A stretch of DNA of 64,000 nucleotides, taken from positions 68,368 through 132,367 of the forward strand of contig JBAZTR010000002.1 of assembly GCA_041661745.1 (NCBI GenBank), written 5' to 3'. The position numbers and the translations under genes were made by a program. Below, in pieces: positions 13,963 to 53,070 of the stretch. Position 1 is the first letter of the stretch, and every line of letters begins with the position of its first letter. The notes under the pieces were generated by a model, which was not told where the DNA came from, searched no databases, and saw only the letters and a program-made list of their open reading frames with translations. Source of the DNA: Patescibacteria group bacterium (GTDB lineage Bacteria > Patescibacteriota > Patescibacteriia > UBA9934 > GWF2-40-263).

Positions 13963-14016
13963 ATTTATTTGGATTAAAAACCGCACTTATTATATCACGA
14001 CACTTAATTAAATTAA

Positions 14017-19877: not shown

Positions 19878-20426
19878 TCAATTAATTAAATATTCCCAAC
19901 CCGGTTGCCAGGCTTTGTTTTTCCGCCAATCCTCGGCAAAAGCTTGTTCCCAGGTTTTATTTTTTAGCAGGACGTCGAGAGCTAACTGCGGCGCTTTGTG
20001 AGCCACAATAGCCACGTGCTTACCGTCATAATTTTCTTTTAGGTGCTTAAGAAAATCAGCGATTCTTATTTTAACATCTTCATAACTTTCTCCGCCAGGG
20101 AAACGGTTGATAATATTTTGTTCCTGAAGCGGCTCGACAATGCTTGAGGGTTGGGCGTTAAAGTCCCCGTAGTCGCATTCACGAAGTCGCTTATCTTGAA
20201 TAATCTGCCAACCACTATCACCAAAAGTCAATTGTGCCGAAGCAACTGCTCGTTTCAAATCAGAACAAAAAACCACATCAAATTTCTTATCTTTGATATG
20301 GTTTTTTAATTCAATAGATTGTTTTATCCCAAGTTCGGATAATTCAGCATCATGACAGCCGGAAGAAATCTCTCTTTCATTATCAGTGGTGGTTCCGTGA
20401 ACAAAGTAAGTAATTTGAACTGACAT
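19878..20426 (-). CDS. Histidine phosphatase family protein (phosphoglycerate mutase-like)
   Basis: N-terminal VHGTTTDNE resembles the RHG catalytic motif of branch-1 histidine phosphatases. Length 182 aa. Confidence 0.55.
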   Translation of the reverse strand: MSVQITYFVHGTTTDNEREISSGCHDAELSELGIKQSIELKNHIKDKKFDVVFCSDLKRAVASAQLTFGDSGWQIIQDKRLRECDYGDFNAQPSSIVEPLQEQNIINRFPGGESYEDVKIRIADFLKHLKENYDGKHVAIVAHKAPQLALDVLLKNKTWEQAFAEDWRKNKAWQPGWEYLIN

Positions 20427-23611: not shown

Positions 23612-23867
23612 AATCACCCCTTGCTCAAAGGATGATTTTATGAGATAATAAAAGCGTAAAAAATAATTTTCAGTATCCAGACAGAAGTTTTCGTCAATAC
23701 GCTTTTAACCATGCTTTCCAAACCTTGGAAATAAATATGATGCGCGCTAATCCGCTAATTAAAGCCGATTTACCCAGACCGCTAGCCGCGACATCTTTTT
23801 TGTTATAAACCCGAGTTAGGAAAAAATAAGCGTTTTTATGGAACTTCTTGGATACCAAGAGGTTTTT

Positions 23868-25406
23868 ATGTTAACAACTGACAATCTCCTTATCATCGCC
23901 GCGGCGATGGGGGTTGCCCTGGGATTCGTCATTGGTTATTTCCTCCGTCGTTTCATTGCCCACAAGGCCGTGCAAAACGCCGAAGTAAGAGCGGAAAAAA
24001 CCATTGCCGATGCCAAGGCCAAACAGCAAGAAATGATCCTTGAGGCCAAAGAAAAATCCCTCAAGATTATCGACGAAGCTAAACAAGAGGAAACAACTCG
24101 TCGTCACGAACTGCAAGAAACGCAAAAACGTTTGGAAAAACGCGAAGCGACCTTTGACCAAAAAATTCTTGATCTTGAAGACAAGAAAAACAAGCTGGAA
24201 GAAAAAACCAAACAGGTCGAGGAAATCAAAAAGAAAATTTTAGAGTTGCGTGATCAAGAAACCACTAAACTTCAAGAAGTCGCCGGCTTAACCAAAGAGC
24301 AAGCTCAAGAACGTTTATTGAAAGCCATCGAGGAAACCAATCAAGAAGCATTACTTAGTCGTTTGCGCAAAATGGAACAAGCCACCGAAGAAGAGTTAGA
24401 ACGCGAATCGCGCAAACTTATTTCTTTGGCTATTACCCGCTTTGCCGCGCCGCAGGCTGTGGAAACCACAACTGTGGCCGTGTCTTTGCCGTCGGATGAA
24501 ATGAAAGGCCGCATCATTGGTAAAGAAGGTCGCAACATTAAAGCCATCGAACTCTTAACTGGTACAGAAATCATTGTCGACGAAACACCAGAAATGATTA
24601 CCGTCAGCGGCTTCTCGCCTATTCGCCGTCAGGTGGCCAAATTAGCTTTGGAAATGCTTATCAAAGATGGCCGTATTCAACCGGCTCGTATTGAGGAAGC
24701 AATTACTGAAGCCAAAAAACAATTATCACAAGAAATCAAAAAAGCCGGCGAAGAAGCTTTGTACGCTTTGGGTATTCCGGTTTCCTCCATTGATCCTAAA
24801 CTGGTTTCCATTCTTGGCCGCTTAAAGTATCGCACGAGTTATGGCCAGAATGTTCTGCAACACTCCATTGAAGTGGCCCAACTCGCCGCGGCCATGGCCG
24901 AAGAGCTTGGCGCTGATGTCGCCATTTGTAAAAAAGGCGGTATCTTCCACGATATTGGCAAAGCTGTTGACCACGACATGCAAGGGGCTCACCCGGAGAT
25001 TGGCTACAACATCATGAAGAAGTTTGGCCTGCCGGAAGAAATTTGTTATCAATCGGTCGCCCACCACGAGGATCGCCCGCGCACCATTGAAGCCGCTTTG
25101 ATTAAAGCCGGTGACGCTATCAGTGGCGCCAGACCAGGGGCTCGTAAACAATCTTTGGAACAATTCATCCAGCGTATGGAAGAGCTGGAAAAAACCGCTT
25201 CGACTTTTGAAGGTGTTGAAAAGGCTTACGCTATTCAAGCTGGCCGCGAAGTCCGGGTCTTTATTCAACCGGAAAAAATTAACGACATGGAATCGTATCA
25301 ACTGGCCAAAGACATTGCCACTAAAATTGAAAGCGAACTGCAGTATCCCGGTGAAATTAAAGTGACGGTAATTAGGGAAACCCGCGTCATTGAATACGCT
25401 AGATAA
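23868..25406 (+). CDS. rny: Ribonuclease Y
   Basis: N-terminal TM helix, long coiled-coil, KH domain (GKEGRNIKAIE) and HD domain (HHED...). AAGAGG Shine-Dalgarno 7 nt upstream of the chosen ATG. Confidence 0.85.
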   Translation: MLTTDNLLIIAAAMGVALGFVIGYFLRRFIAHKAVQNAEVRAEKTIADAKAKQQEMILEAKEKSLKIIDEAKQEETTRRHELQETQKRLEKREATFDQKILDLEDKKNKLEEKTKQVEEIKKKILELRDQETTKLQEVAGLTKEQAQERLLKAIEETNQEALLSRLRKMEQATEEELERESRKLISLAITRFAAPQAVETTTVAVSLPSDEMKGRIIGKEGRNIKAIELLTGTEIIVDETPEMITVSGFSPIRRQVAKLALEMLIKDGRIQPARIEEAITEAKKQLSQEIKKAGEEALYALGIPVSSIDPKLVSILGRLKYRTSYGQNVLQHSIEVAQLAAAMAEELGADVAICKKGGIFHDIGKAVDHDMQGAHPEIGYNIMKKFGLPEEICYQSVAHHEDRPRTIEAALIKAGDAISGARPGARKQSLEQFIQRMEELEKTASTFEGVEKAYAIQAGREVRVFIQPEKINDMESYQLAKDIATKIESELQYPGEIKVTVIRETRVIEYAR

Positions 25407-26640: not shown

Positions 26641-26676
26641 AAAAGAGAGTCTGAGAAGGCTCTCTTTTAGTTTTCA
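26641..26676. terminator. Bidirectional terminator between hup (+) and the MFS transporter gene (-)
   Basis: aaaAGAGAGtctgagaaggCTCTCTtttagtttt. Confidence 0.6.
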
Positions 26677-27861
26677 GACACGCGGCCTGAAGAGATACAG
26701 AACCAAAGCTCCGGCCACCATGAGGCTGCCACAAATCATCCAGACCGTGGCAATAGTCGTGTTGTCACTCGGTGCTTGACGCAGACTAAACCACACCACG
26801 AAGGGAGTAACAGCAAAACCCAAACGGCCGAGGAGCGACTGAAGCGAGCTAAAGGTCGCCCGATACGAACTTTCCACGCGATGATGAATGAAGACGTCGG
26901 AAAGTGGCTCGAAGATACCGCGGCCAAGTTCATGGATGATCACCATAGGCAGAACGAAACCCCAACCTCCGAAGACTGGAATCAGTGCCATGCCGATGCC
27001 GCTCATGGCCAAGGCGATGAGAATGCCTGACTCTTCCCGTCCGTTCAAAACACGGCGGCTTCTCACGACAAAACCAGCAATCGGCACGGCCGGATACATA
27101 ACCAGCCAAGCAATGGAACCGCCTGATGGCCCGAAGAGCTCGTTGAAGTAAACGGCCCAGTAGTGATTGAAGGAAACCACCAAACCGAAAACAATCATAC
27201 TCGCGGCCACCCACACCAGGGCGCGACTCTGGCAAAGAAGAGTGAAGCTTTGCTTCAACGCTTCGAGCTCGGAAATCTTTTCCTCGGGCTCGCCGTGACC
27301 ATTCATACGATACTTGGCCAGCCACCAGACGAAAATTCCACTAACTACCAGCGGCAACCAAACGAAGTGCAACCCGATTGACTGGGCCAGAGTGTTGGCA
27401 AGAAGAGCGACAACGAACAAGACCGAACCATGAATAACTTTATCCATGGCAAAAGCTTTTTTGGTCGCGTGCTTCAACTCGTCATCGATCAAGCCGGAAC
27501 ACTTCAGCGAATCAACCATCCAGGCCTGCTTGGCTCCGGACATGAAAGCGCCGCCCACACCGACCAAGGCCTCGGCCAACATGGCGCTCCACAAACCTTC
27601 GGCAAAAAAGTAGGTGAGCGCACCAACGGCGTAGAAAAGACCGGACATGCCAATCGACCATGAACGACTGCGGCCATCGGCCAAGGCGCCGGTTGGAAGT
27701 TCAGCACAAATAACCGTGACCCAAAAAATCGTGTTGATCAAACTAAACTCGGCGTAAGACAAACCGAGCGAAGCCATGAATGGGCCATAAGCAACACAGG
27801 TGGCGCCCATGCCAACAGCCAGTGCGGCCGACAGAAGGTAGTACATTGATTGGGGACGCAT
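26674..27861 (-). CDS. Major facilitator superfamily transporter
   Basis: About 12 predicted TM helices. Conserved MFS loop-like motif GALADGRSRSW. Moderately GC-rich relative to flanks. Confidence 0.7.
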   Translation of the reverse strand: MRPQSMYYLLSAALAVGMGATCVAYGPFMASLGLSYAEFSLINTIFWVTVICAELPTGALADGRSRSWSIGMSGLFYAVGALTYFFAEGLWSAMLAEALVGVGGAFMSGAKQAWMVDSLKCSGLIDDELKHATKKAFAMDKVIHGSVLFVVALLANTLAQSIGLHFVWLPLVVSGIFVWWLAKYRMNGHGEPEEKISELEALKQSFTLLCQSRALVWVAASMIVFGLVVSFNHYWAVYFNELFGPSGGSIAWLVMYPAVPIAGFVVRSRRVLNGREESGILIALAMSGIGMALIPVFGGWGFVLPMVIIHELGRGIFEPLSDVFIHHRVESSYRATFSSLQSLLGRLGFAVTPFVVWFSLRQAPSDNTTIATVWMICGSLMVAGALVLYLFRPRV

Positions 27862-31492: not shown

Positions 31493-34015
31493 TTAAACCA
31501 CGGCCACACTGGCCACTTTGTCCTTTTCCTCTTTAAAGCGCATAACCCGCACCCCTTGAGTATCGCGGCCAAGAACAGAAACCGAGGTAATGCTGATACG
31601 AATAACCTGTCCGCCGGTGGAAATGACCATAAGGTCACGTTTGTCATCGGCATCAACAATGCGCGCACTGATGACCTTACCGGTTTTGGCCGAAACATGG
31701 GCTGTCCTGATACCAGAACCGCCACGCCCCTGTGTTTTGTATTCATCAATCGGAGTACGTTTGCCCAATCCATTTTCCATAATAACCAAAAGCTGGGCTT
31801 GATCCTTACGTTTGGCCATTTCGGTATTAATTACATCCATGCCAATCACCACATCAGAACCCTTAAGACGAATACCGCGCACCCCAGCCGCTGAACGGCC
31901 CATGGAACGAACACTGTCCTCGTTAAAACGAATTGATTGCCCGGCAGCCGTGACCAATGAAATATCATCTTTGCCGGAAGTTGGTTTAACCCATTCCAAA
32001 TTATCACCGTCGTTTAATTTAATGGCAATCAAACCGTTTTGACGAATGTTTTCAAATTCTTCAATGGCTGTCTTTTTAACAGTTCCTTTACTAGTTATAA
32101 AGAATAAGAATTTGTAAGCATCGTCTTCAGAGAAAGACAGGTACGAAGTGACCGATTCACCCGGCGCCAAGTTAAGGAAGTTAACCAAGGCCTGACCCTT
32201 AGCTGTGCGCGCCGCTTCGGGAATGTCGTAAGCTTTAGTTTTAAAGACACGACCACGATTGGTGAAGAACAAAATATCGCGGTGTGTGGTGGTGGAGAAC
32301 ATTTGTTCAACTTCATCTTCTTCTTTAGTGGTAAGGCCCATGACTCCCTTACCGCCACGAACCTGAGTGCGGAAAGCATCAGGCGAAACCCGTTTGATAT
32401 ATCCGCCACGCGTGATCATGACGACAGTCGCGACATCAGGAATTAAGTCTTCCATGGCAAAGGCCTTAATGCCCTGCTTAACCACCTCAGTGCGACGTTC
32501 GTCGCCATATTTTTCCTTAATTTCTTCGACCTCGTTTTTAACCAGGGTACGGACTTTCTTTTCTGATTTCAAAATCGCTTCCAGTTCGGCAATCAGTTTT
32601 TGTTTTTCTTCCCATTCCTGTTCGATTCTTAAGCGTTCCAAATTGGCCAGCTGTTGCAAGCGCATTTCCAAGATGGCGACCGCTTGCAGTTCGGACAACT
32701 TGAATTTCTTCATCAAGTTAACCCGCGCTTCGTCCTTATCTTTTGATTTTTTAATTGTCTCGATGACTTTGTCGATGTTGAGTAAGGCAATACGTAAGCC
32801 TTCAAGAATATGAGCGCGATCTTTGGCTTTATCAAGCTCGAACTGTGTGCGTCGACGAATAACAACAAAGCGATGTTTTAAAAATTCTTCAATGATTGAT
32901 TTTAAGTTCAAGACCCGCGGCTGAATTCCATCAATCAAGGCCAACATGTTGACGTGAAAAGTTTCTTGCAGCTGCGTTAATTGATACAAGCGGTTCAAAA
33001 CTTTTTTGGGATAAGCATCTTTTTTAAGTTCAATAATAATGCGCACGCCATCATTGGTTGATTCATCCCAAAGATCGCGAATGCCTTCAATTTTTTTATC
33101 GCGCACCAATTCGGCAATTTTTTCCAGAAGCGTCGCTTTATTAACCTGGAAAGGAATTTCTTGAACAATAATCCGCATGTTGCCTTTTTTGTCTTCGGAA
33201 ATCTCGGTCTTGGCGCGAGTCATGATTCCGCCCTTACCTGTGGCATAGGCTTGTTTGATTTCGTTCCAATCGTAAATAATACCACCGGTTGGAAAATCGG
33301 GGCCTTTTACAAATTCTAACAAATCTTCGATGGTGGCTTCGGGGTTATCCAGCAAATGAATTGTGGCATCACAGACCTCGGTTAAGTTATGCGGCGGAAT
33401 GTTGGTAGCCATACCAACGGCAATACCAAGCGTACCGTTGATAAGAAGGTTAGGTGCTTTGGCTGGCAAGACCGACGGTTCCTCGTGGGTACCATCAAAG
33501 TTGGGGTGAAAATCAACGGTATTTTTTTCAATATCAACCAACATTTCTTCAGCCAATGGACGCAGCTTTGATTCAGTGTAACGATAGGCCGCGGCTGAGT
33601 CGCCATCAAGCGAACCAAAGTTACCTTGGCCGTTAATAAGCGGGTAGCGCAACTTAAAATCCTGAGCCATGTGAACCAAGGAATCATAAACCGCCAAGTC
33701 GCCGTGCGGATGATATTTACCAAGTACTTCACCAACCACAGTGGCGCATTTCTTAAAACGCGAATTGGCTCTAAGACCCACTTGCCACATGGAATAAAGA
33801 ATGCGGCGATGCACCGGCTTTAAACCATCACGAACATCGGGCAAAGCGCGACTGACAATAACCGACATGGCGTAATCCAAATACGCGTCGCTCATTTCGT
33901 GACTAATTTCTCGGGCTTCAAGCCGACCGACTAAAGCCGTGTCGCTTAACGGAACCACTTCCTGGTCTTCACCCTTATTCGGCTGATGCTTGATTGTTTT
34001 CTTGAGTTTCGCCAT
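31493..34015 (-). CDS. gyrA: DNA gyrase subunit A
   Basis: [27 protein letters not shown] active-site Tyr region, C-terminal beta-pinwheel repeats. Length 840 aa. Confidence 0.95.
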
Positions 34016-34367
34016 ATTGATTTTCTAAATTTTCTTTCATGATTTCGCCCACTATATTGGAGGCTTCTTTTCTTTGTTCAGTGGCCTCGCCCAAGACCTC
34101 GACAGCATCGCCAATAACTGGGGTGACTTCACTGACCGGTTCTTGCAAACCACTTTTTAAATCAGAACCAATGTCTTGCATACCGTTTTTTATTTCAGAC
34201 ATCTGGGTCAGAGTATTCTTTGACGAAAGGTTAAGATTAGCCCAACTCTTTTTAAAAGAAAAAAACCATCCAACCAACGCCAAACAGATAGTCAGTCCAA
34301 CACTGACGTAAAAAACAGTTTGGCGATTGGCAGGTAGTTTATTGATTCGCATATCACGCCCGCTCAA
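33975..34367 (-). CDS. Small membrane protein, hypothetical (1 TM helix)
   Basis: TM helix VFYVSVGLTICLALVGWFF. Overlaps the gyrA start by about 40 nt, operonic. Confidence 0.35.
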   Translation of the reverse strand: MSGRDMRINKLPANRQTVFYVSVGLTICLALVGWFFSFKKSWANLNLSSKNTLTQMSEIKNGMQDIGSDLKSGLQEPVSEVTPVIGDAVEVLGEATEQRKEASNIVGEIMKENLENQYGETQENNQASAE

Positions 34368-39031: not shown

Positions 39032-39994
39032 ATGTCAAAACCAATTTATCGCCCGCTATTTTTAGAGGCCTGGAAAAAATCCTGGCACCACAAACGTTTG
39101 TGGGTCTTGGGAATTTTTGCCACGATTATGGCTTCCGGCGGGCTTTTTGAATCCATTTTTGGCAATTGGCAAACTGCTTTAAAAGGCCGAGAAATGTTGG
39201 AGCAATGTATTAATGGCACTCTCCCGGGTTATCAATGGTTGGTTTCTTATAGTCGTTACTTATCAATGCTTGAACCAAGGCAACAGTACACAATATCAGC
39301 CGTTGTTATTTTGCTTCTGCTTGGTCTAATCTCTTTAGGTGCTTTGGCTCAAGGAGCGATTTTGGTTGGTGGGCTAGAAAAACATTCCCTTAGTTTCCGC
39401 GAACTCCTCAAAAAAAGCTATCATTTTTTCTGGCGCATTCTTGGAATTGATATTATCGGCAAAATCGGCCTGGCCCTACTTTTTATTATTACCGTGGCCC
39501 CGGTCGCTTTCCTAAATCCTCTACCGTACGGTTGGCATCAATATCCGCCAATCATTTCCTTAGCTGTTTTCTTAGTTGGAATGATTGCTGTCACGACATT
39601 ACAAATGCTTTCCCTGGTCGGAGTCGTTAGAAAACATCTGAATATTTCCGGGGCTATCCACGAGGCTTGGGATATCTTCCGTTTTCATGTCGTCGTAACA
39701 CTTGAACTGGGGATTCTGCTTTTTATCACTTCCTTCCTCGCAACTTTGGTTACCATGGCTTTGCTGTTTATCTTATCCATACCGCTCATACTGTTATTTG
39801 TTATAGCAACCATCCTCGGCTCAGCCGGTTTCTATCTGCTTTCCATCTTTGCTTCCATTGTCATCGTTGTCGCCATTATCCTTCTTGCCTCGGGACTTCT
39901 TACAACCTTTCAATACACGGTTTGGTCTTTATATTTTGAAGAAGCCGGCCGTTTCGGAATTATTCCAAAAATTAAAAGATGGTTTAAAAAATAA
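39032..39994 (+). CDS. Polytopic membrane protein, hypothetical
   Basis: GGAGG Shine-Dalgarno upstream. At least 6 predicted TM helices. No recognisable family. Confidence 0.45.
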   Translation: MSKPIYRPLFLEAWKKSWHHKRLWVLGIFATIMASGGLFESIFGNWQTALKGREMLEQCINGTLPGYQWLVSYSRYLSMLEPRQQYTISAVVILLLLGLISLGALAQGAILVGGLEKHSLSFRELLKKSYHFFWRILGIDIIGKIGLALLFIITVAPVAFLNPLPYGWHQYPPIISLAVFLVGMIAVTTLQMLSLVGVVRKHLNISGAIHEAWDIFRFHVVVTLELGILLFITSFLATLVTMALLFILSIPLILLFVIATILGSAGFYLLSIFASIVIVVAIILLASGLLTTFQYTVWSLYFEEAGRFGIIPKIKRWFKK

Positions 39995-43400: not shown

Positions 43401-44147
43401 CTATTTTTTGGAAAAACCTTCAAAAGCTTTTAGAACTTCCAACGGGACGGCAAAGACAACAGTGTTCGAGGCATCAGAAGAAATGTCGTTAATCGAATTC
43501 AAAGTACGAAGATGTAAGGCACCTGGAGAATCGGAAAGCATTCGAGCGGCTTTGGCCAAATTTTCAGCTGCGGCGACTTCGCCCTCGGCGCTAATAATGA
43601 CAGCGCGACGTTCACGCTCGGCTTCGGCTTGTTTGGCAATGGTACGAATCATTTCTTGTGGCAAATTAATATCTTTCAGTTCGGTCACAGTAACTTCCAC
43701 ACCCCAACCCATAGTGGCTTCGTCCACAAGTTTTTCGATCTTATCAGAAATGACGCCGCGCTGACTCAAAAGTTCGTCGAGAGTCACTTCACCGACAATG
43801 TTACGCATGGTTGTCTGCGCCAACTGAAGAACGGCGTAGTCGACATGTTCAACCTCAAGAATAGCTTTACCGGCATCAACAACTTTATAATAAATAACCG
43901 CGTTGATTTTAGCTGAAACGTTGTCTTTGGTAATCGCGTCCTGTGAAGGAACATCAATCGCTTTTAAACGCATATCGACTTTGCGGATGGATTGAAAAAC
44001 CGGAATGATTGGATACCAGCCCGGGTTAACGATGCCGGAAAACTTACCCATGGTAAATTTAACGCCGCGTTCGTATTGGTTGACCTGTTTTAAACAGGAG
44101 AGGAAAAAGATAACCACGAGGATTATCAGAGGAATGTAGGCTTCCAT
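43401..44147 (-). CDS. SPFH/band-7 (stomatin/prohibitin-like) membrane protein
   Basis: N-terminal TM helix, band-7 domain (YERGVKFTMGKF...), C-terminal coiled-coil AEAERER. Confidence 0.8.
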   Translation of the reverse strand: MEAYIPLIILVVIFFLSCLKQVNQYERGVKFTMGKFSGIVNPGWYPIIPVFQSIRKVDMRLKAIDVPSQDAITKDNVSAKINAVIYYKVVDAGKAILEVEHVDYAVLQLAQTTMRNIVGEVTLDELLSQRGVISDKIEKLVDEATMGWGVEVTVTELKDINLPQEMIRTIAKQAEAERERRAVIISAEGEVAAAENLAKAARMLSDSPGALHLRTLNSINDISSDASNTVVFAVPLEVLKAFEGFSKK

Positions 44148-44166
44148 AAATAATTTCTTTTAATTA

Positions 44167-44631
44167 TTAATCTTCGATTAAAACTTTTTTACTTCGATCT
44201 TTTTTAACTTTTCCGCGCCGTGTTTTTTCATCAAGTTGTCGCCGCCGCACGGCCCGCGGTTTTCTGGTCGGAATACGCGGCACAATTGGCCTTAAAGCAT
44301 CCTCAAGATCGGCCAGAAAATTATCCAATACCATTTCCCGATTTTGCCTTTGTGACCGGGTAACCTGACATGCCATAACCAGTTCGCCTTTTTTATTAAT
44401 CATGCCGGCTAAGGCGCTTTTTATTCTGGTCTTTTCTTCAGGTGAAAAAACTAACGAGGTTTCAACATTCCAACGAAGATGCACCTTGGTATCGCTAGTA
44501 TTAACCCCTTGGCCGCCAGGTCCCCCGGAACGAGCGAAATCGAATTGTAATTCGGCCCTAAGAGCTGTTTCGTCAAAAAATCTCGCCTCACCATCAATTA
44601 CGGCCGGATTATGCCCAAATTCCTTTGGCAT
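44167..44631 (-). CDS. arfB: Alternative ribosome-rescue factor ArfB-like (peptidyl-tRNA hydrolase; class I release-factor GGQ domain) with basic C-terminal tail
   Basis: SGGPGGQGVNTSDTKV GGQ motif. K/R-rich tail KPRAVRRRQLDEKTRRGKVKKDRSKK. Confidence 0.65.
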   Translation of the reverse strand: MPKEFGHNPAVIDGEARFFDETALRAELQFDFARSGGPGGQGVNTSDTKVHLRWNVETSLVFSPEEKTRIKSALAGMINKKGELVMACQVTRSQRQNREMVLDNFLADLEDALRPIVPRIPTRKPRAVRRRQLDEKTRRGKVKKDRSKKVLIED

Positions 44632-44716
44632 AAAAATATTAATTATTTCTTTAAAATAATAGCATAACGGCGTGGAACAGCAACCCTTGACCAAAGGGCA
44701 AAAAAAGCGTTAAATA

Positions 44717-45253
44717 ATGGCGGGGACACAGACCGGAGGAAGAACCATGGTACACCATGCCGTGGCTCTGCCTGTTAGCGAGGATGGCCGTGAGGTCCTC
44801 CTCGCGTGTCACACTGAGGGAACCAATTATGGGGCCCTCCTTCCTCCCAGTGGTAAGGTGAAGCCAACGGATCGAAACGCCCAAGCTGCTGCGGTCAGGG
44901 AAACCCGCGAAGAGCTGGGTATCGATCTCGACGATCCACGATGCGTAGGTGTCGTGGAGGTCCTCAAGGAAGACGGCGACTGGCTGAGACTGTTCGTCTT
45001 TGTCTCGCGCTACCGTGGGAAGCCCCGGAAAAGCAACGAGATGAGAGACGCGCGTCTCTTCCCGATCGACGACCTGCCTCTCGAGGACATGTGGCCCGAT
45101 GCTAGTAGCTGGGTGCCTCACGTGATCAACCATGGTCACGACGCCCCGCCACTCGGGTTCAGGCTTCGCCACGTGCGTGGACCAAATGGCCGTCCCGGGT
45201 TCCTTGTCAAAAGGTTCAACCCGGCCGCGTTGGTCAGGAGGTACTGCGCATGA
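44717..45253 (+). CDS. Nudix hydrolase; GC-rich island gene
   Basis: Nudix box GKVKPTDRNAQAAAVRETREELGI. Markedly GC-rich by eye. The overlapping antisense ORF 44651-45319 is judged spurious. Confidence 0.55.
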   Translation: MAGTQTGGRTMVHHAVALPVSEDGREVLLACHTEGTNYGALLPPSGKVKPTDRNAQAAAVRETREELGIDLDDPRCVGVVEVLKEDGDWLRLFVFVSRYRGKPRKSNEMRDARLFPIDDLPLEDMWPDASSWVPHVINHGHDAPPLGFRLRHVRGPNGRPGFLVKRFNPAALVRRYCA

Positions 45254-45413
45254 CCACCTCACCCAACAACCCCTCGGCCGCCAGGCCAAGGACTCACGTC
45301 GATCGTTCGAGCACCCCACTTGCTCATGGTCGGCGTTTTATTTCTCCACGAGAGTGTCTGGCTTATTCCTTGACTCCTTTTCAAAAATCATTTATCATAA
45401 CCGCGCAATTTAT

Positions 45414-45488
45414 GGCCCCATCGTCTAACGGTTAGGACGCGAGCTTTTCAAGCTTGTAATCCGGGTTCGATTCCCGGTGGGGTCACCA
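45414..45488 (+). tRNA. tRNA-Glu (anticodon TTC)
   Basis: GGCCCCAtcGTCtaacggttaGGACgCGAGCttttcaaGCTTGtaatCCGGGttcgattCCCGGTGGGGTCaCCA. Confidence 0.85.
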
Positions 45489-45492
45489 CAAA

Positions 45493-45526
45493 GGTCATCT
45501 GTAAAAACAGGTGATTTTTGTTTTTA
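45493..45526 (+). terminator. Intrinsic terminator after tRNA-Glu
   Basis: TCATCTGtaaaaaCAGGTGAtttttgttttt. Confidence 0.6.
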
Positions 45527-45571
45527 AAAAACCGCCCGCCAAGCGAACCTTGGGGACGGGACGAACGAAGA

Positions 45572-46444
45572 CTACTCCTCCAAGAAACGTCGGTGTTGTT
45601 CGACCATCGCGAGCAACTCGGGGCCGGTGAAGACTGGGCGTTGAATTGTCTGCCAGTCGTTGGTCGAACGTGCAGGGTCCCACGGGCAAATCGAACGCAT
45701 CCAGTCAAGGCGAGTCCGCACATCAGTCGCACCTTCGGGATTGATCCGAGTATAGTGGAGGATATGGCCGTTGTGAATGCGGTCCAGGTTGCGTCGCGAC
45801 CTATCCAAATCGCGGAAGCGCTGCGGCGTCATGCGCTCAATAAGCACACGAACGGCCCACATAACCTCACCATGACAGACGATGATGACCGAGCCGTTGG
45901 ACTGCTCGCGGTGAAGTGAGTCAAAGAAAGCATGCAGACGATCAAGGACATCGGCCAGTGATTCACCGCCACCCGGCCGCCACCACACACCATCACGTTC
46001 CCTACGAGCCAAATTTTCGGCCATCTCGCCAGTGGCCCGCTGTTCAGCCGTGGCCGAACTAAGCCGACCCCAGTCGCGCTCGGACAGCATGGGGTGCAAA
46101 AGCCACTCAGCCCCCGGCATTTCTAGCAACCCGGCCGTTTCGATGGCCCGAGCGTACCAGCTAGTCAGGTAACGAGTGAAGCCTGCGGGAAACTCACGCC
46201 GCAGCCACTCACCGGCGGCCGCAGCTTGATTGCAGCCGCGCGGACTAAGACGCCATTCCTGGGTGTGAACCGCGTCGAGCTTGGCCATGAGTGAGCTATC
46301 GCCTTTTTTTACCAGAGCCTGGGCAACATTCCCCTCGCTCTCTCCGTGACGAACGAGGACAAGATTAAGCGGCATAGTCATGGACACATCCCCTTTCATT
46401 GAGCCTTGGAAATCGACCTTAACACCTAATTTTTTAAGCGTCAA
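45572..46444 (-). CDS. Histidine phosphatase family protein (phosphoglycerate mutase-like); GC-rich island gene
   Basis: LVLVRHGESEGN RHG catalytic motif. Start may be the internal Met MPLNLVLV at about 46375. GC-rich like the adjacent Nudix gene. Confidence 0.55.
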   Translation of the reverse strand: MTLKKLGVKVDFQGSMKGDVSMTMPLNLVLVRHGESEGNVAQALVKKGDSSLMAKLDAVHTQEWRLSPRGCNQAAAAGEWLRREFPAGFTRYLTSWYARAIETAGLLEMPGAEWLLHPMLSERDWGRLSSATAEQRATGEMAENLARRERDGVWWRPGGGESLADVLDRLHAFFDSLHREQSNGSVIIVCHGEVMWAVRVLIERMTPQRFRDLDRSRRNLDRIHNGHILHYTRINPEGATDVRTRLDWMRSICPWDPARSTNDWQTIQRPVFTGPELLAMVEQHRRFLEE

Positions 46445-46496
46445 TTATAAAAAACCGCTTTAATTTTCAAAAAAAATAAGCTATAATTGTTCCGTT

Positions 46497-46907
46497 ATGG
46501 AAAAAGTTGTGCTCTATTTTATCTTTTACGGTTTTGTTGGTTGGCTCATGGACACGGGCTTTCGCACTATTCGTGATAAAAAATTCAGTCAAGGTAGTTT
46601 TCTAAAAATTCCCTTTTGTTCAACCTACGGTTTGGGGGCGTTATTACTTTTGCTTATCCAATCATGGATCATTGAACAAAATATTTTAGTCCAATTTGTT
46701 CTTTTGGCTGTTGTTTTATCGGCTTTTGAATTTATTATCGGTTTTTTGTCATCACACGTCTGGGGGAAACGTTACTGGGATTATTCTAAACAGCCATTTA
46801 ATCTTTTTGGCCACACCGATCTTGAACATGCCATTTATTGGGGCGGCCTGGGGGTACTCTTTATTCATGTTGTTCACCCCATGGTAACCGCCATTTTTAC
46901 TTTTTAA
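46497..46907 (+). CDS. Small polytopic membrane protein, hypothetical
   Basis: 4 predicted TM helices. Confidence 0.45.
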   Translation: MEKVVLYFIFYGFVGWLMDTGFRTIRDKKFSQGSFLKIPFCSTYGLGALLLLLIQSWIIEQNILVQFVLLAVVLSAFEFIIGFLSSHVWGKRYWDYSKQPFNLFGHTDLEHAIYWGGLGVLFIHVVHPMVTAIFTF

Positions 46908-46953
46908 TGGCTTCTCAGGGTTTCAAAAAAGATATACAATATAAACAACTTAT

Positions 46954-47649
46954 ATGTTTAATCTTCCTTTTCTTTTTATCGCGCTGATACTATTTTTTAT
47001 CTGGGCCCTTTTATTTTTCTTTGGCAAAAACACACGGCGTGAACAAATTATCATGAGTTTGGCCGGCCTGGTTCTGACTCCAGCCGTTCTAATGGTGGCC
47101 TCTAATGATTATCGCGTAACCGGAACCTTGTCCTACGGCCTTATCGGTGTTGAAGATTTAATTTTTGCTTTTTCTTTTACTGGTGTCGCGGCCGTGGTTT
47201 ATGAAATTCTAATTGGCCGACGTTTAGTGCCGGCTCGCCACAAACATTTGTGGGGCAAACATCCCATTAATTGGTTTGCTTCGCTAGTCATTATTCTTGG
47301 CAGCTGGGCCTTGGTATCAATGGCCGCCTTGTGGCTATTTCCGGTTAATTCAGTCTACGCTTTAATGGTCGGTGGTTTGTTGGTTTTAACCTACATCATT
47401 ACCGATCGTCACGATTTAATTTTTGACGCCTTATTCTCTGGGTTATTCATGGCCATCTTAGTCTTTGGTTTGGAACAGTTATTTTTTGTTCAACTTTTTC
47501 CAACCGAAGCGGCCGCTATTTGGCAAGTCGATCGCCTTTCCGGTTTTCTCCCCGGTGGCGTTCCGGTTGAAGAAATAATTTGGGTTTTAATCGTTGGTAT
47601 GGCCATTGGCCCGGTTTATGAATTTGTCCGACACTATCGCGTTAAATAA
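46954..47649 (+). CDS. Polytopic membrane protein, hypothetical
   Basis: 6-7 predicted TM helices. Confidence 0.45.
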   Translation: MFNLPFLFIALILFFIWALLFFFGKNTRREQIIMSLAGLVLTPAVLMVASNDYRVTGTLSYGLIGVEDLIFAFSFTGVAAVVYEILIGRRLVPARHKHLWGKHPINWFASLVIILGSWALVSMAALWLFPVNSVYALMVGGLLVLTYIITDRHDLIFDALFSGLFMAILVFGLEQLFFVQLFPTEAAAIWQVDRLSGFLPGGVPVEEIIWVLIVGMAIGPVYEFVRHYRVK

Positions 47650-50965: not shown

Positions 50966-51939
50966 TTATTTTAGCACTTCTTCGATCCTCCAGCAACCAT
51001 CGGGACCACAGACAAGATGAGAATTTTTAATAGTAAAACCGGCCGCTTTGGTGTGTCCACCACCGCCATGAGCCCGAGCGATTGCCGCCACATCCCCGCT
51101 TCTGGTGCGCATACTGGCTTTGACCCCGTTATCTTTAGTTTCGCGGAAAACGCAAATCGTGTCAGCCGCCAAGGCCCAATTCAAATAGTTTGATAAGCCG
51201 TCAATATCCTCTTCGCTTGCCCCGAAAGTCTCCAAATCTTGTCTGGTGATGGCTGTGGCCACGGCCTGAAATTCTTCGTGGTTAAACAGGCGTTCCAAGG
51301 CAATGCCCCACATTCGTAAAGCTGGAATTGAACGATTTTTTAAAAGCAGACGAATTGCCTCACTGCCCCGAGCGCCCAACATAAGCATTTCCGAAGCTCG
51401 CTCCAAAACCAAAGCGCTGGTGGCGTTATTAGAAAAGGCTGTGGTGTCAAAAATCAAACCGGAAAAAAGGCAAGTGGCCATTTCTTTATTTATAGAAATT
51501 TTATTCTCCTTGAAAAAACGAATAATGATTTCACAAGTGGCTGGTGCGGTCGCGTCGACAAAATGTAGGTGGCCAAATTTAGGGTTCGAAGAGTGGTGAT
51601 CAATATTTATGACAAACGGTTTGGGGCCGGACAATTTAGCTACCGTGTCCTCAATAAACTGAGCGTCAGAACAATCGAAAGAAACAACCAAGTCTGGAGA
51701 AAGTTTAGCCAGCTCGGCTGGATCAAAAAAACAAATATTCTGATGCGGTAGAATGCGATATTTTTCCGGTACGGCCTCGGAAATAAAAACCTTAACCGGC
51801 TTTCCTAACTGTAATAAATAATCAGCCATGGCCAAAGATGAACCAAGGGAGTCGCCATCCAACCTTTCGTCCGCGACAAGCAACGGTTGTTTGGCTTGGA
51901 TGAGCTTTTCGTGGATTTGTTCCAAGGTGGAATAGCTCA
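50966..51939 (-). CDS. nrnA: DHH-family phosphoesterase (NrnA-like oligoribonuclease / pAp phosphatase)
   Basis: DHH motif (INIDHHSSN) and DHHA1 GGGH motif. Start at internal [11 protein letters not shown]; the upstream part of the track ORF is antisense noise across the GC-rich island. Confidence 0.7.
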
Positions 51940-51984
51940 TAAGCAAGGAATGAGTATAAAGGAATTTCGGAAAACGGTCAAGAT

Positions 51985-52010
51985 TAAAAAAGCCCGCACG
52001 GATGTGCGAG
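51985..52010 (-). terminator. Intrinsic terminator after the caspase-like gene
   Basis: Minus-strand reading: hairpin CGCACatccGTGCG followed by GGCTTTTTT. Confidence 0.5.
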
Positions 52011-52020
52011 CGAGGCGGCT

Positions 52021-53070
52021 TCAGAAGCGGAAGACGAGGATGCCAGTGCCGGTGGCCAGCAGAACACCGCCGACAGCCAAGGTGCTGATCTGCGAGGCGC
52101 GAACCGCCTCGTAGGCCTTCTGGTCGCGCGGCTCCAGGGGCTCCATGAGGTAGGCGTCGCCGATCCCGTAGAGGGAGGCGCTGGCGACCCCAAAGAACAG
52201 TCCGGAGCCGATGACCGCCCAGCCGGCGTTCGGGTGCCCCTTCTTCTTGCCGGGGACGACCGGGGCCGGCGGCAGTACCGCGACTGCCCGAACGGGCGGC
52301 ATCGCGATGACATCGGTCGGATCGTAGTTGCCGGTCACGTCGACGTGTGCCTTGTCTTCGGTGGCCTCGCCGACCCTCTTGTCGACGAAACGCTGGAACT
52401 CGGCCACGGTGATTTCGCCGTTGCCGGAGGCGTCGGCCAGACCGTCCAGGCCTTCGGCTACCACTTGACCGAAACCTGCCCACTCCGAACCAGTGTTGGC
52501 CGGAAGGTAGGACACGGCCAGGATGTTCGGAGCCTGGTCGGACCAGTGGCGCGACTGCGGACCAACCAAGGCCACGTTGCCGAGCGAACCCTGACGCATG
52601 GTCTGGGTCACGACGATGACCTGAACCCCGGGCTTGATGGACCCCATGAGCCCATCGACCCTGACGCCGCTGGCCATGACATCACTTGGGTTGACGTCCC
52701 AGGGCAACAGGTAGGGGTCATCGAAGTCGCCCCCGACGGCCAGCATGGAGATGTAGAGGAAGAGCGAGTCGCCGGCCTCCAGGTTGATGGCGAAGTCGTT
52801 CGAGAAGAGACTCTCGATGTCGACCTTGTTGGCCTTGCTGCTCACCACGAGGTTGACCTCGTAGCCGGAAGCCTTCAGGGCCAGACCCAGCTGGCGAGTC
52901 TGCTCCAGCCCAGCGTCGAGCGACCGCGGCAAGGTGGTGTCCTGGTAGTTGTCGACAGCCAGGACGACCGCGATCTTCTTCGGATCCCCATCCTCGGCCC
53001 CCGCCACTGCAGGGCAAAGGAGGGAGAACAGGAAAGCCATGGCAACGGCGAAGGCCAGACGATTGAACAT
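52021..53070 (-). CDS. Secreted/membrane-anchored caspase-like (peptidase C14-like) domain protein with EF-hand calcium-binding loop and C-terminal TM helices; GC-rich island gene
   Basis: Signal peptide MFNRLAFAVAMAFLFSLLCPAVAGA. Caspase-like block KIAVVLAVDNYQD...ASGYEV...GDSLFLYIS...VQVIVVTQTMRQG. EF-hand DASGNGEITVAEF. Two C-terminal hydrophobic helices. Very GC-rich by eye. Confidence 0.4.
   Translation of the reverse strand: MFNRLAFAVAMAFLFSLLCPAVAGAEDGDPKKIAVVLAVDNYQDTTLPRSLDAGLEQTRQLGLALKASGYEVNLVVSSKANKVDIESLFSNDFAINLEAGDSLFLYISMLAVGGDFDDPYLLPWDVNPSDVMASGVRVDGLMGSIKPGVQVIVVTQTMRQGSLGNVALVGPQSRHWSDQAPNILAVSYLPANTGSEWAGFGQVVAEGLDGLADASGNGEITVAEFQRFVDKRVGEATEDKAHVDVTGNYDPTDVIAMPPVRAVAVLPPAPVVPGKKKGHPNAGWAVIGSGLFFGVASASLYGIGDAYLMEPLEPRDQKAYEAVRASQISTLAVGGVLLATGTGILVFRF

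What the first reader, a model, noticed from the sequence alone, without database searches (positions are those of the whole stretch)
44717..46444. GC-rich island flanking tRNA-Glu: Nudix hydrolase plus histidine phosphatase
Two genes on either side of tRNA-Glu are both markedly GC-rich compared with the neighbouring arfB, the membrane proteins and hsp20. This suggests acquisition at the tRNA. A Nudix pyrophosphohydrolase paired with a PGAM-family phosphatase is a plausible nucleotide-derivative degradation pair, for example ADP-ribose, Ap4A or alarmones. Together with the GC-rich RelA/SpoT-like gene elsewhere in the window, they could be dispersed parts of a foreign nucleotide-signalling or detoxification toolkit. 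That last link is speculative.
Basis: partly seen in the sequence, partly recalled or inferred. Interest (0 to 1): 0.55.

Follow-up and report, generated by a model that had tools for sequence, protein, structure and literature searches.

The report
GC-rich Nudix and phosphatase beside tRNA-Glu
Two unusually GC-rich single genes, an MTH1-like Nudix hydrolase and an uncharacterised histidine phosphatase, flank a tRNA-Glu gene in a Patescibacteria genome, but related genomes have the same arrangement, so this is an old, probably horizontal inheritance and not a fresh tRNA-integrated island or a working enzyme pair.

Summary
The Nudix gene (44747-45253, +) has 60.6% GC and GC3 0.67. The histidine phosphatase gene (45572-46381, -) has 59.1% GC and GC3 0.64. 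The window median is 45.4% GC and GC3 0.44, so both are about 5 robust SD out. They flank tRNA-Glu(UUC) at 45414-45488.

The interpretation mostly fails.
- No repeat of the tRNA 3' end, integrase or transposase was found.
- A Candidatus Uhrbacteria relative (backbone proteins 60-94% identical) has the same PilB-TsaE-TsaD-Band7-Nudix-tRNA-Glu-HisPhos-LycCyc-HSP20-VanW order, and both genes are GC-elevated there too.
- The two genes are convergent, and each has promoter- and terminator-like sites of its own. They co-occur only in this narrow clade.
- The Nudix is MTH1/NUDT1-like, very rare, and diverging fast (33% identity to its positional orthologue).
- The phosphatase belongs to a large, catalytically intact 269-aa family spread patchily across phyla. 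In 11 of 94 loci it lies beside a canonical NAD-salvage cluster (PncB, a Prs-like gene, an NMNAT-NADK fusion, NadE). None of these genes is in this window.
- I found no RelA/SpoT gene.

My best reading is an old acquisition from a GC-richer donor, inherited within the clade and still ameliorating. Interest is modest. The phosphatase family's link to NAD salvage is the part worth following.

The parts
44747..45253 (+). MTH1/NUDT1-like Nudix hydrolase, 168 aa, GC 60.6%, GC3 0.67
   Evidence: Pfam NUDIX scores 60 bits. NCBI calls the same 168-aa protein (P0121). The best solved relatives are human and mouse MTH1 at E 5e-10, sharing the C-terminal MWPDxSxW motif.
45254..45330 (+). GC-rich (64%) untranslated tail after the Nudix stop codon
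   Evidence: Composition is and the sequence. I have no function for it. L001 shows no comparable GC-rich stretch in its profile.
45370..45398 (+). Promoter-like site for tRNA-Glu (TTGACT, 17 nt, TATCAT)
   Evidence: The consensus scan matches 10 of 12 positions. L085 keeps nearly the same sequence. Its function is inferred.
45414..45488 (+). tRNA-Glu (anticodon UUC), with CCA encoded
   Evidence: ARAGORN and Rfam RF00005 at 62.9 bits. It is identical in L085 and differs at 5 positions in L001.
45495..45525 (+). Terminator-like hairpin (TCATCTGT-AAAA-ACAGGTGA) followed by a T-run, after the tRNA
   Evidence: I read this directly from the sequence. The scan tool did not list it. L001 has an analogous hairpin and T-run.
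45532..45548 (-). Terminator-like hairpin plus T-run after the phosphatase gene
   Evidence: Consensus scan. L085 and L162 have a comparable GC hairpin and T-run after the gene.
45572..46381 (-). Histidine phosphatase (His_Phos_1, branch 1) of a 269-aa family with a conserved C-terminal W-x-RS-x-CPWD extension; GC 59.1%, GC3 0.64
   Evidence: Pfam scores 100 bits. More than 857 homologues were found. R11, H12, G13, R78, E101 and H170 are invariant, and the MTMPL start is shared. The AlphaFold model has pLDDT 92.7. The fold matches FBPase-2, GpgP, CobC and dPGM at 20-25% identity.

Best explanation
The locus holds three independent transcription units: a Nudix gene, a native tRNA-Glu with its own promoter and terminator, and a convergent histidine phosphatase gene. 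Both protein genes are accessory genes of foreign, GC-richer origin. They entered the genome before this Uhrbacteria-like clade diversified and have been inherited in the same slot since.

They are slowly ameliorating toward the 45% GC host composition. That directional pressure, together with weak constraint, is why they diverge faster than the housekeeping genes around them.

They are not a tRNA-integrated mobile island, and they do not form an operon or an obligate enzyme pair.

Biochemically, the Nudix most likely sanitises or hydrolyses a nucleoside triphosphate or diphosphate derivative in the manner of MTH1. The phosphatase is a catalytically competent phospho-histidine enzyme acting on a phosphorylated sugar or ribotide. 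Gene neighbourhoods elsewhere tie it to Preiss-Handler NAD salvage and PRPP supply.

Shown: composition, gene content, synteny, family membership, catalytic residues and neighbourhood statistics. Inferred: direction and timing of transfer, amelioration, substrates.
For: Composition:
- GC and GC3 are about 5 robust SD above 53 window genes, and GC1 and GC2 are raised too.

Synteny:
- L001 (Ca. Uhrbacteria GW2011_GWE2_45_35 type) has PilB-TsaE-TsaD-Band7-(ArfB-like remnant)-NUDIX-tRNA-Glu-HisPhos-...-LycCyc-HSP20-VanW-...-ClpP.
- Backbone proteins are 60-94% identical. The phosphatase is 62% identical and the Nudix 31-33%.
- Both genes are GC-elevated in L001 as well: GC3 0.56 and 0.62-0.64, against about 0.41-0.45 for most backbone genes (0.41-0.53 overall).
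- The L001 Nudix shares the subfamily-specific PPSxxVKP, MWPDA and C-terminal LGxRL...NP features, so it is an orthologue and not an unrelated replacement.
- L085 and L162 keep LycCyc-HSP20 next to the phosphatase. L085 also carries an identical tRNA-Glu.
- The clade of window, L085, L001 and L086 is monophyletic in the family tree.

No island hallmarks.

Independent units:
- Convergent orientation, a promoter-like site for the tRNA, and terminator-like hairpins.

No intrinsic GC constraint:
- Family members in AT-rich Patescibacteria have GC3 of 0.22-0.41.

Very GC-rich potential donors exist:
- GC3 is 0.93-0.98 in Thermoleophilia, Actinomycetota and Planctomycetota.

Divergence depth:
- Four-fold-site identity between window and L001 backbone genes is 0.31-0.53. 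That is deep but not fully saturated, so a residual ancestral GC signal is arithmetically possible.

Function: for the folds and residues; for the NAD-salvage neighbourhoods.
Against: - Phosphatase distances inside the clade are nearly star-like (56-66%) and do not scale with backbone distances. Window-L085 is 82-86% in the backbone but 65% in the phosphatase. Window-L001 is 71-74% against 62%. That fits allele exchange as well as acceleration.
- In the GC-rich relative L086, phosphatase GC3 (0.63) is below its neighbours (0.78-0.86). The gene keeps GC3 near 0.6 in hosts of opposite composition, which simple amelioration after one event does not predict.
- My rough decay estimate needs an ancestral GC3 of about 0.75-0.99 at the split.
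- By identity, the nearest outgroups are moderately GC-rich Patescibacteria (P0009, 52%, GC3 0.66), not very GC-rich phyla.
- Clade members L160 and L161 are in other contexts.
- Only about three independent syntenic lineages were available.
Confidence: 0.5

Rival explanations
1. A discrete genomic island was recently integrated at tRNA-Glu, bringing a Nudix/PGAM-type degradation pair as part of a dispersed foreign nucleotide-signalling toolkit.
For: - Strong GC and GC3 anomaly next to a tRNA.
- Other GC-rich single genes are scattered through the window.
- In L160 a clade phosphatase lies between two other tRNAs.
Against: - No repeat of the tRNA 3' end, no integrase or transposase, and no border repeats.
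- The two GC-rich blocks lie on opposite sides of a tRNA whose flanks have native composition.
- The same order is present in relatives whose four-fold sites are nearly saturated.
- The genes are convergent and separately terminated.
- No RelA/SpoT gene was found.
- The other GC-rich genes have very different GC3 (0.62-0.85), so there is no sign of one donor.
Confidence: 0.05
2. The tRNA-Glu neighbourhood is a recombination and replacement hot spot. Alleles of the Nudix and phosphatase are repeatedly swapped in from a shared pool of GC3 about 0.6 among related Patescibacteria, with the conserved tRNA and housekeeping flanks serving as homology anchors. GC-biased gene conversion may contribute. 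The position is conserved but the lineage of the gene is not.
For: - Star-like phosphatase distances that do not scale with the backbone.
- GC3 of about 0.56-0.78 in seven clade members regardless of host GC3, which ranges from 0.29 to 0.86.
- Micro-rearrangements at the site: the tRNA cassette is inverted in L085, ArfB is degraded in L001, and CmpB is replaced by an EamA-like gene plus a 275-aa gene.
- Several assemblies break at or just beside this tRNA.
- Four-fold-site identity is 0.33 for the phosphatase and 0.23 for the Nudix, against about 0.40 for the backbone.
Against: - The clade topology for the three taxa with backbone data matches the backbone.
- The Nudix orthologues keep lineage-specific motifs despite 33% identity.
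- Sampling is very small, and no donor allele closer than 68% was found among 5.8 billion proteins.
- Accelerated evolution under amelioration predicts similar numbers.
Confidence: 0.25
3. The two enzymes really do act in one pathway of NAD/ADP-ribose or phosphoribosyl turnover even though they are not co-transcribed. For example, the Nudix cleaves a dinucleotide and the phosphatase removes a remaining sugar phosphate.
For: - In other Patescibacteria the phosphatase family sits beside PncA, PncB, an NMNAT-NADK fusion, ADP-ribosylglycohydrolase, a Prs-like protein and NadE. A Nudix-like 195-aa protein is often in the same cluster.
- Both genes stay adjacent in two deeply diverged genomes.
Against: - The window Nudix is unrelated to the cluster Nudix proteins beyond the superfamily. 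It resembles MTH1 instead.
- The L001 orthologue has a damaged Nudix box, RGIKEE.
- The Nudix and the phosphatase each occur alone elsewhere.
- No NAD-salvage gene was found in the 64-kb window.
Confidence: 0.1
4. Both genes are native, and their GC-richness is a gene-specific property (amino-acid composition, mRNA structure or expression), not a trace of transfer.
For: - The position is conserved and GC is elevated in several relatives.
- The family is on average about 4 points GC-richer than its flanks in low-GC hosts.
- The proteins are rich in Arg, Gly, Ala, Pro and Trp.
Against: - GC3 is elevated as much as GC1 and GC2.
- The untranslated 77-nt tail is also GC-rich.
- Family members in AT-rich hosts reach GC3 of 0.22-0.41, so nothing intrinsic forces high GC.
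- The P0122 Nudix orthologue shows no contrast with its neighbours.
- Ribosomal protein and translation-factor genes in the window have ordinary GC3.
Confidence: 0.1

Closest known systems
MTH1 / NUDT1 (oxidised purine nucleoside triphosphatase), Nudix superfamily
   Same: It has the Nudix fold and an intact REx2EE catalytic core. It shares the MTH1-type C-terminal substrate motif MWPD-x-S-x-W: W117, D119 and W123 of human MTH1 are conserved. About 30% identity extends over about 113 residues, and the best PDB E-value is 5e-10.
   Different: D120 is Ala and N33 is Leu, and both are base-recognition residues in hMTH1 (from my own knowledge of the hMTH1 structures). The G-x5-E part of the Nudix box reads G-x5-D with one extra residue. 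There is an extra tail of about 40 aa (LGFRLRH...FLVKRFNP) shared only with three or four relatives. Only 16 clusters among 1.84 billion representatives reach E of 1e-10 or better. The substrate is untested.
Histidine phosphatase superfamily branch 1: fructose-2,6-bisphosphatase domain, TIGAR, GpgP (Rv2419c), CobC alpha-ribazole phosphatase, dPGM
   Same: It has the RHG nucleophile motif, a second catalytic His in CHGE, conserved Arg and Glu, and the canonical fold at pLDDT 92.7. The best sequence match in the PDB is rat FBPase-2 (E 3e-17). The best fold matches are GpgP, FBPase-2 and CobC.
   Different: Identity to any characterised enzyme is only 20-25%. All NCBIfam equivalog scores are far below their cut-offs; the best is CobC at 45 bits against 163. 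A conserved C-terminal extension of about 60 aa carries an invariant motif, W-x-RS-x-CP-[WST]-[DN], absent from the solved relatives (TM-score normalised to the query about 0.6). The family has its own recurrent PncB/Prs-like neighbourhood.
tRNA-associated genomic islands / integrative elements
   Same: It is compositionally deviant DNA directly next to a tRNA gene, made of accessory-type genes.
   Different: It has no integrase, no att direct repeat, two blocks on opposite sides of the tRNA, presence at the same site in diverged relatives, and only about 1.6 kb of cargo.
Phage NARP1-AP operon (Adps - Macro-domain ADPR-1''-phosphate phosphatase Adpp - Namat), bioRxiv 10.64898/2026.01.28.702374
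   Same: This is a formal resemblance that applies only to family members elsewhere (for example L012, L013, L017, L099). There, a phosphoribosyltransferase-family gene, a phosphatase and a PRPP-synthetase-like gene stand side by side in an NAD-rebuilding context.
   Different: The phosphatase there is a Macro domain, not a histidine phosphatase. The Patescibacteria transferase is a canonical PncB (E 2e-93 to PDB 1ybe), not a Namat. The Prs-like protein is only distantly Prs-like and is of unknown specificity. None of these partner genes is in this window.

Membership tests
Nudix hydrolase superfamily (PF00293) | Significant match to the NUDIX profile | tested here: met
   60.4 bits against a cut-off of 21.1, covering residues 13-135 of the long ORF.
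Nudix hydrolase superfamily (PF00293) | Nudix box G-x5-E-x7-R-E-U-x-E-E-x-G-U | tested here: inconclusive
   The sequence reads GKVKPT-D-RNAQAAAV-RETREELGI. The REUxEExGU half is intact. The upstream Glu is Asp, and the spacer is 8 residues instead of 7. The L001 orthologue reads RGIKEE, so it has lost the first Glu.
MTH1/NUDT1 subfamily | Substrate-recognition residues of hMTH1 (N33, W117, D119, D120), listed from my own knowledge | tested here: not met
   W117 and D119 are conserved. D120 is Ala and N33 is Leu in the alignments. I therefore call it MTH1-like, not a member.
8-oxo-dGTP diphosphatase MutT (NCBIfam equivalogs NF008044, TIGR00586) | Score above the curated equivalog cut-off | tested here: not met
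   20.7 bits against 148, and 16.2 against 97.9.
Histidine phosphatase superfamily, branch 1 (PF00300) | Profile match plus the catalytic RHG His, a second His, two Arg and an acid Glu | tested here: met
   100.4 bits against 21.7. R11, H12, G13, R78, E101 and H170 are invariant in 26 family members. The canonical fold is modelled at pLDDT 92.7.
2,3-BPG-dependent phosphoglycerate mutase (GpmA) / CobC / PspA / SixA equivalogs | Score above the NCBIfam equivalog cut-off | tested here: not met
   The best is CobC TIGR03162 at 45.4 bits against 162.9. GpmA models score 16.5-38.7 against 81.7-421. SixA scores 16.3 against 74.5.
NAD+ kinase (the name JGI attaches to most family members) | NAD_kinase domains (PF01513, PF20143) | tested here: not met
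   Only His_Phos_1 is detected. NAD_kinase domains occur instead in the neighbouring NMNAT fusion protein of the L087 and L098 clusters.
tRNA-integrated genomic island | Direct repeat of the tRNA 3' end at the distal border | tested here: not met
   The 26-nt 3' end has no second match in the window with up to 3 mismatches. No convincing repeats were found in 43800-47200.
tRNA-integrated genomic island | Integrase or recombinase gene next to the tRNA | tested here: not met
   All neighbours from about 29.9 to 56.8 kb with a Pfam match are housekeeping or membrane proteins. The exceptions without a match are 33975-34367, 39032-39994 and the 52021-53070 ORFan, and none resembles a recombinase.
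tRNA-integrated genomic island | Absence from related genomes (empty site) | tested here: not met
   Both genes occupy the same site in L001, L002, L003, L089 and L090. No closer relatives were available, so a recent event among very close strains cannot be excluded.
Operonic enzyme pair | Same strand, co-transcribed, co-occurring across genomes | tested here: not met
   The genes are convergent, with a tRNA and two terminator-like hairpins between them. Each gene is found without the other in L004, L160 and L161, within the limits of those short contigs.

The most novel reading that the evidence does not exclude
The 269-aa RHG...W-RS-CPWD histidine phosphatase family is an unrecognised component of phosphoribosyl/NAD salvage in Patescibacteria and other phyla. 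It would be a phosphatase for an anomeric or ribotide phosphate, with candidates ribose-1,5-bisphosphate, ADP-ribose-1''-phosphate, NaMN/NMN or NADP. That would make it a non-homologous counterpart of the Macro-domain phosphatase recently found in phage NAD-rebuilding operons. The gene would also travel horizontally as a self-contained promoter-gene-terminator cassette that tends to keep its own GC content.
Probability: 0.15. Interest if true: 0.6.

Novelty: new member of a known kind. Interest (0 to 1): 0.3.

Why it matters
For the question asked, the result is mainly corrective. A striking GC anomaly next to a tRNA is not enough to call a recent island. Here it marks old accessory genes that stay compositionally foreign over a long divergence.

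Two things could matter beyond that.

First, a large, well-conserved, uncharacterised histidine phosphatase family has more than 857 hits. I found nothing about it in the literature I searched, and a public pipeline labels it 'NAD+ kinase'. It has one recurrent genomic partner set: canonical NAD salvage plus a divergent PRPP-synthetase-like gene. Patescibacteria depend on salvage, so an unassigned step there is worth an enzyme assay.

Second, the locus is a small, tractable case for asking why some transferred genes resist amelioration. The candidate answers are repeated replacement, biased gene conversion, and slow decay.

Tried and rejected
- I searched for att-type repeats of the tRNA-Glu 3' end and for general direct and inverted repeats. 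Only short chance matches turned up.
- Rfam found nothing in the window beyond the four tRNAs.
- PADLOC gave only a weak hit for the Nudix (PDC-S07, 24 bits) and nothing for the phosphatase. PHROGs gave generic Nudix hits and one unknown-function phosphatase family. There is no evidence for a defence or phage role.
- I tested whether the window Nudix is the Nudix type of the NAD clusters. It is not.
- I tested whether the Patescibacteria PncB/Prs-like neighbours are the phage NARP1 enzymes Namat and Adps. PncB is canonical. The Prs-like protein matches only ordinary Prs, and only distantly.
- Cluster look-up to name donors of the Nudix gave almost no taxonomy.
- Five completed literature searches (a sixth failed on term syntax) found nothing on this phosphatase family. 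The NARP1 search led to the NARP1-AP preprint.
- The metagenome scan found no relative closer than 62% apart from the L001 species.
- tRNA adjacency across the wider family (4 of about 48 loci within 500 nt) is no more than I would expect by chance.
- The long antisense ORFs 44651-45319 (-) and 45518-45919 (+) are by-products of GC-richness, and I set them aside as genes.
Full report
**What is at the coordinates.** The window averages 45.9% GC. Fine-scale profiling shows two GC-rich blocks, about 44700-45330 and 45540-46390, at 57-63%. The flanks are much lower: 33-42% just after 46400 and 38-47% before 44700.

ARAGORN and Rfam place tRNA-Glu(UUC) at 45414-45488 on the + strand. The ORF to its left is a NUDIX protein and the ORF to its right, on the - strand, is a His_Phos_1 protein. 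The neighbours are ArfB, Band_7, TsaD, TsaE and PilB on one side. On the other are a CmpB-like membrane protein, a Lycopene_cyc-domain membrane protein, HSP20, VanW and ClpP.

Homologue alignments place the real starts at 44747 (168 aa, identical to the NCBI call P0121, with GGAGG upstream) and at 46381 (family-wide N-terminus MTMPL).

Against 53 curated genes of the window (median GC 0.454 and GC3 0.437; robust SD 0.028 and 0.042):
- The Nudix has GC 0.606 and GC3 0.669.
- The phosphatase has GC 0.591 and GC3 0.637.
- GC1 and GC2 are raised as well, so both genes are about 5 SD out.

The island is not continuous, though. The tRNA's upstream region (GC 0.39) and the spacer between the tRNA and the phosphatase (GC 0.46) look native. 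A 77-nt GC-rich tail follows the Nudix stop codon.

**Architecture.** The Nudix and the tRNA point rightward and the phosphatase points leftward, so the two protein genes are convergent.
- The tRNA has a promoter-like TTGACT-17-TATCAT site 15 nt upstream.
- It is followed by a hairpin plus T-run at 45495-45525, which I read from the sequence.
- The phosphatase has its own terminator-like hairpin on the - strand at 45548-45532.

These are three separate units, not an operon. This is inferred from sequence only.

**Tests for a tRNA-integrated island.**
- The 26-nt 3' end of the tRNA has no second copy in the window, even with three mismatches.
- Repeat searches over 43.8-47.2 kb give only short chance-level matches.
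- Every neighbour from about 30 to 57 kb that matches a Pfam family is a housekeeping or membrane gene: RNase III, GyrA, S1, FtsH, PilB, TsaE/D, Band_7, ArfB, HSP20, VanW, ClpP, DHH, SMC. There is no integrase or transposase.

**Synteny in relatives.** The closest phosphatase homologue on a long contig is P0006 (62% identity), named Candidatus Uhrbacteria GW2011_GWE2_45_35. It lies in the same gene order: PilB-TsaE-TsaD-Band7-(101-aa ArfB-like remnant)-NUDIX-tRNA-Glu(UUC)-HisPhos-...-LycCyc-HSP20-VanW-...-ClpP. This order appears in independent ENA and JGI assemblies.
- Backbone proteins are 60-94% identical to the window's. The phosphatase is 62% identical and the Nudix only 31-33%.
- The L001 Nudix still shares the lineage-specific motifs (PPSxxVKP, MWPDA, and a C-terminal LGxRL...NP tail). 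It is a fast-diverging orthologue, not an unrelated replacement. Its Nudix box is damaged (RGIKEE).
- Both genes are GC-elevated in L001 too: GC3 0.56 and 0.62-0.64, against 0.41-0.45 for most backbone genes.
- Two further relatives (L085 at 65% and L162 at 68% phosphatase identity) keep LycCyc next to a GC-rich phosphatase, GC3 0.67 and 0.64; L085 also keeps HSP20. In L085 the tRNA-Glu is 100% identical to the window's, but the tRNA cassette is inverted relative to the phosphatase.

**What complicates a purely vertical story.**
- Four-fold-site identity between window and L001 backbone genes is 0.31-0.53. That is deep but not fully saturated. For the phosphatase it is 0.33 and for the Nudix 0.23.
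- Phosphatase identities within the clade are nearly star-like (56-66%) and do not scale with backbone identities. Window-L085 is 82-86% in the backbone against 65% in the phosphatase. Window-L001 is 71-74% against 62%.
- Across seven clade members the gene keeps GC3 of 0.56-0.78, whether the host neighbours are at 0.29-0.6 or at 0.78-0.86 as in L086.
- Two clade members lie in other contexts. L160 sits between tRNA-Gly and tRNA-Phe, next to TrmB methyltransferase and PspC. L161 sits next to a TrmB-type regulator.
- The Nudix orthologue P0122 (58%) sits beside an M50 peptidase with no GC contrast.
- Nothing intrinsic forces the family to be GC-rich, since members in AT-rich hosts have GC3 of 0.22-0.41.

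A rough decay estimate from the four-fold data implies that one pre-split acquisition would need a donor GC3 of about 0.75-0.99. This is my own inference. Such values exist in the family in Thermoleophilia, Actinomycetota and Planctomycetota. By identity, however, the nearest outgroups are moderately GC-rich Patescibacteria.

I therefore rank the models as follows:
- Old acquisition, vertical inheritance with ongoing amelioration and accelerated divergence: confidence 0.5.
- Recurrent allele replacement at a conserved, rearrangement-prone site: 0.25.
- Native genes with a gene-specific bias: 0.1.

**The phosphatase family.** The k-mer/HMMER search returns more than 857 homologues, mostly 266-274 aa. 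JGI labels many of them 'NAD+ kinase' and NCBI labels them 'phosphoglycerate mutase family'.
- In 26 aligned members, R11, H12, G13, N18, R78, E101 and H170 are invariant. So is a C-terminal motif W-x-RS-x-CP-[WST]-[DN].
- No NCBIfam equivalog comes near its cut-off. The best is CobC at 45 bits against 163.
- A family profile matches the fructose-2,6-bisphosphatase domain best among solved structures (E 3e-17).
- An AlphaFold model (pLDDT 92.7) matches GpgP, FBPase-2, CobC, PSP and dPGM at 20-25% identity. TM-score normalised to the query is about 0.6, because the C-terminal 60 aa are extra.
- Genome hits come from many Patescibacteria classes, and also from Planctomycetota, Thermoleophilia/Actinomycetota, Acidobacteriota and Armatimonadota. 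A neighbour-joining tree interleaves these groups, which indicates inter-phylum transfer.
- In GC-rich hosts the gene matches its flanks. In low-GC hosts it is typically 2-13 points richer, with a few exceptions.

**Neighbourhood evidence for function.** I clustered all ORFs within 3 kb of the gene in an unbiased way across 94 non-redundant loci. The only recurrent partners were these:
- A canonical PncB in 11 loci (E 2e-93 to PDB 1ybe).
- CN_hydrolase/NadE in 9 loci.
- A divergent PRPP-synthetase-like gene directly downstream in 8 loci.
- An NMNAT-NAD-kinase fusion in 7 loci.
- A radical-SAM protein in 6 loci.
- PncA, ADP-ribosylglycohydrolase and a weak Nudix-like protein also appear in the clusters.
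- These partners lie mostly on the same strand as the phosphatase.

This probably explains the 'NAD+ kinase' mislabel. It ties the family to Preiss-Handler salvage and phosphoribosyl supply.

Given the similarity to an enzyme that removes an anomeric furanose phosphate (FBPase-2), I propose ribose-1,5-bisphosphate, ADP-ribose-1''-phosphate, pyridine mononucleotides or NADP as candidate substrates. This is inference, not a result.

A recent preprint describes phage NARP1 operons that add a Macro-domain ADPR-1''-phosphate phosphatase between Adps and Namat (bioRxiv 10.64898/2026.01.28.702374). The Patescibacteria arrangement PncB-HisPhos-Prs-like resembles that layout only in form. The transferase is a canonical PncB and the phosphatase is not homologous. 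None of these partner genes lies in the present window.

**The Nudix.** The best solved relatives are human and mouse MTH1 (E 5e-10), with the motif MWPDxSxW conserved. D120 and N33 of hMTH1 are replaced. MutT equivalog scores are far below their cut-offs.

An exhaustive HMMER pass over 1.84 billion representatives finds only 16 clusters at E of 1e-10 or better. Only P0122, P0123 and the L001 protein share the C-terminal tail. The Nudix is unrelated, beyond the superfamily, to the Nudix proteins of the NAD clusters. I read it as a lineage-restricted, weakly constrained MTH1-like nucleotide hydrolase. Its substrate is unknown.

**The proposed toolkit.** I found no RelA_SpoT or HD_4 match in the GC-rich or unannotated ORFs. 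The only HD domain is RNase Y (23838-25406), at native GC. The 365-aa ORF 6702-7799 matches nothing in Pfam or the PDB.

The window does contain other single-gene GC outliers:
- 12091-12588 (GC3 0.78).
- A gene of about 82 aa for a small membrane protein near 18562-18810 (GC3 0.68).
- An MFS transporter at 26674-27861 (GC3 0.62).
- An ORFan at 52021-53070 (GC 0.65, GC3 0.85), whose only hit among 5.8 billion proteins is itself.

Their GC3 values differ widely and they share no function, so I see no sign of a single foreign toolkit.

**Verdict.** The locus is an old, compositionally foreign pair of independent accessory genes around a native tRNA-Glu. The find itself is ordinary. It leaves one useful lead, an uncharacterised histidine phosphatase family linked to NAD/PRPP salvage, and one open question, why these genes keep their GC content.

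Noticed in passing
window 52021-53070 (-): A 349-aa ORF with a signal-peptide-like N-terminus and a hydrophobic C-terminus. At GC 65% and GC3 0.85 it is the strongest compositional outlier in the window. It has no Pfam, PHROG, PADLOC or PDB match, and its only hit among 5.8 billion proteins is itself. It sits between a DHH/DHHA1 gene and SMC.
   Followed up: partly
window 12091-12588 (-): A 165-aa ORF with GC 61% and GC3 0.78 and no Pfam match. It lies between a 437-aa gene (10667-11980, not scanned) and a 429-aa gene with a signal-peptide-like N-terminus (12697-13986, not scanned).
   Followed up: no
window ~18562-18810 (+): The GC-rich (59%) stretch between a 439-aa gene (17179-18498) and a 307-aa gene (18948-19871), neither scanned, seems to encode a small protein of about 82 aa with three hydrophobic helices. 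It is in frame +1, has GC3 0.68 and GGAGG upstream, and is followed by a terminator-like sequence. Rfam finds nothing there.
   Followed up: partly
window 26674-27861 (-): An MFS transporter with GC 54% and GC3 0.62 (z = +4.5). It is another single-gene compositional outlier.
   Followed up: no
window 19878-20426 (-): A second His_Phos_1 protein (182 aa, 107 bits) with native or low composition (GC 40%, GC3 0.35). The genome therefore carries both a native-looking and a foreign-looking histidine phosphatase.
   Followed up: no
window 6702-7799 (-): A 365-aa ORF at GC 51% with no Pfam or PDB match. It lies next to NDK and downstream of tRNA-Pro.
   Followed up: partly
window 44651-45319 (-), 45518-45919 (+), 50966-52483 (-): The two long antisense ORFs inside the GC-rich genes, and the Arg-rich 170-aa N-terminal extension of the DHH ORF that runs into the GC-rich ORFan, are by-products of stop-codon-poor GC-rich DNA. 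They are not genes.
   Followed up: yes
L087 437-11126 (also L012, L013, L017, L098, L099, L105, L119): These Patescibacteria loci carry an NAD-salvage cluster: PncA-like, a 480-508-aa NMNAT-NAD-kinase fusion, ADP-ribosylglycohydrolase, a weak Nudix-like 195-aa protein, canonical PncB, the histidine phosphatase, a Prs-like or radical-SAM gene, and CN_hydrolase plus NadE. Most members are on one strand.
   Followed up: partly
L160 534-2899: A clade phosphatase (55% identical, GC3 0.72) lies between tRNA-Gly and tRNA-Phe, within a run of four tRNAs beside EF-Tu (GC3 0.29). This is a second, different tRNA-flanked context.
   Followed up: partly
L085 2620-2790; L162 1286-1333: In L085 the tRNA-Glu cassette (promoter plus a tRNA identical to the window's) is inverted relative to the phosphatase. 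The contig ends inside the tRNA. L162 ends in the terminator just after the phosphatase gene.
   Followed up: partly
L001 1068-2652 and 6376-7798: The Uhrbacteria relative has its own GC-rich single genes at other sites: a MopE-like gene (GC3 0.77), a 339-aa ORF at GC 68%, a 275-aa ORF and an EamA-like gene (GC3 about 0.6). A DDE transposase lies near PilB. GC-rich accessory inserts therefore seem to be a general habit of this lineage.
   Followed up: no
L001 9242-9760 (-): The positional orthologue of the Nudix has lost the first Glu of the REx2EE core (RGIKEE) and the Gly of G-x5-E. This suggests loss or change of catalytic activity.
   Followed up: no
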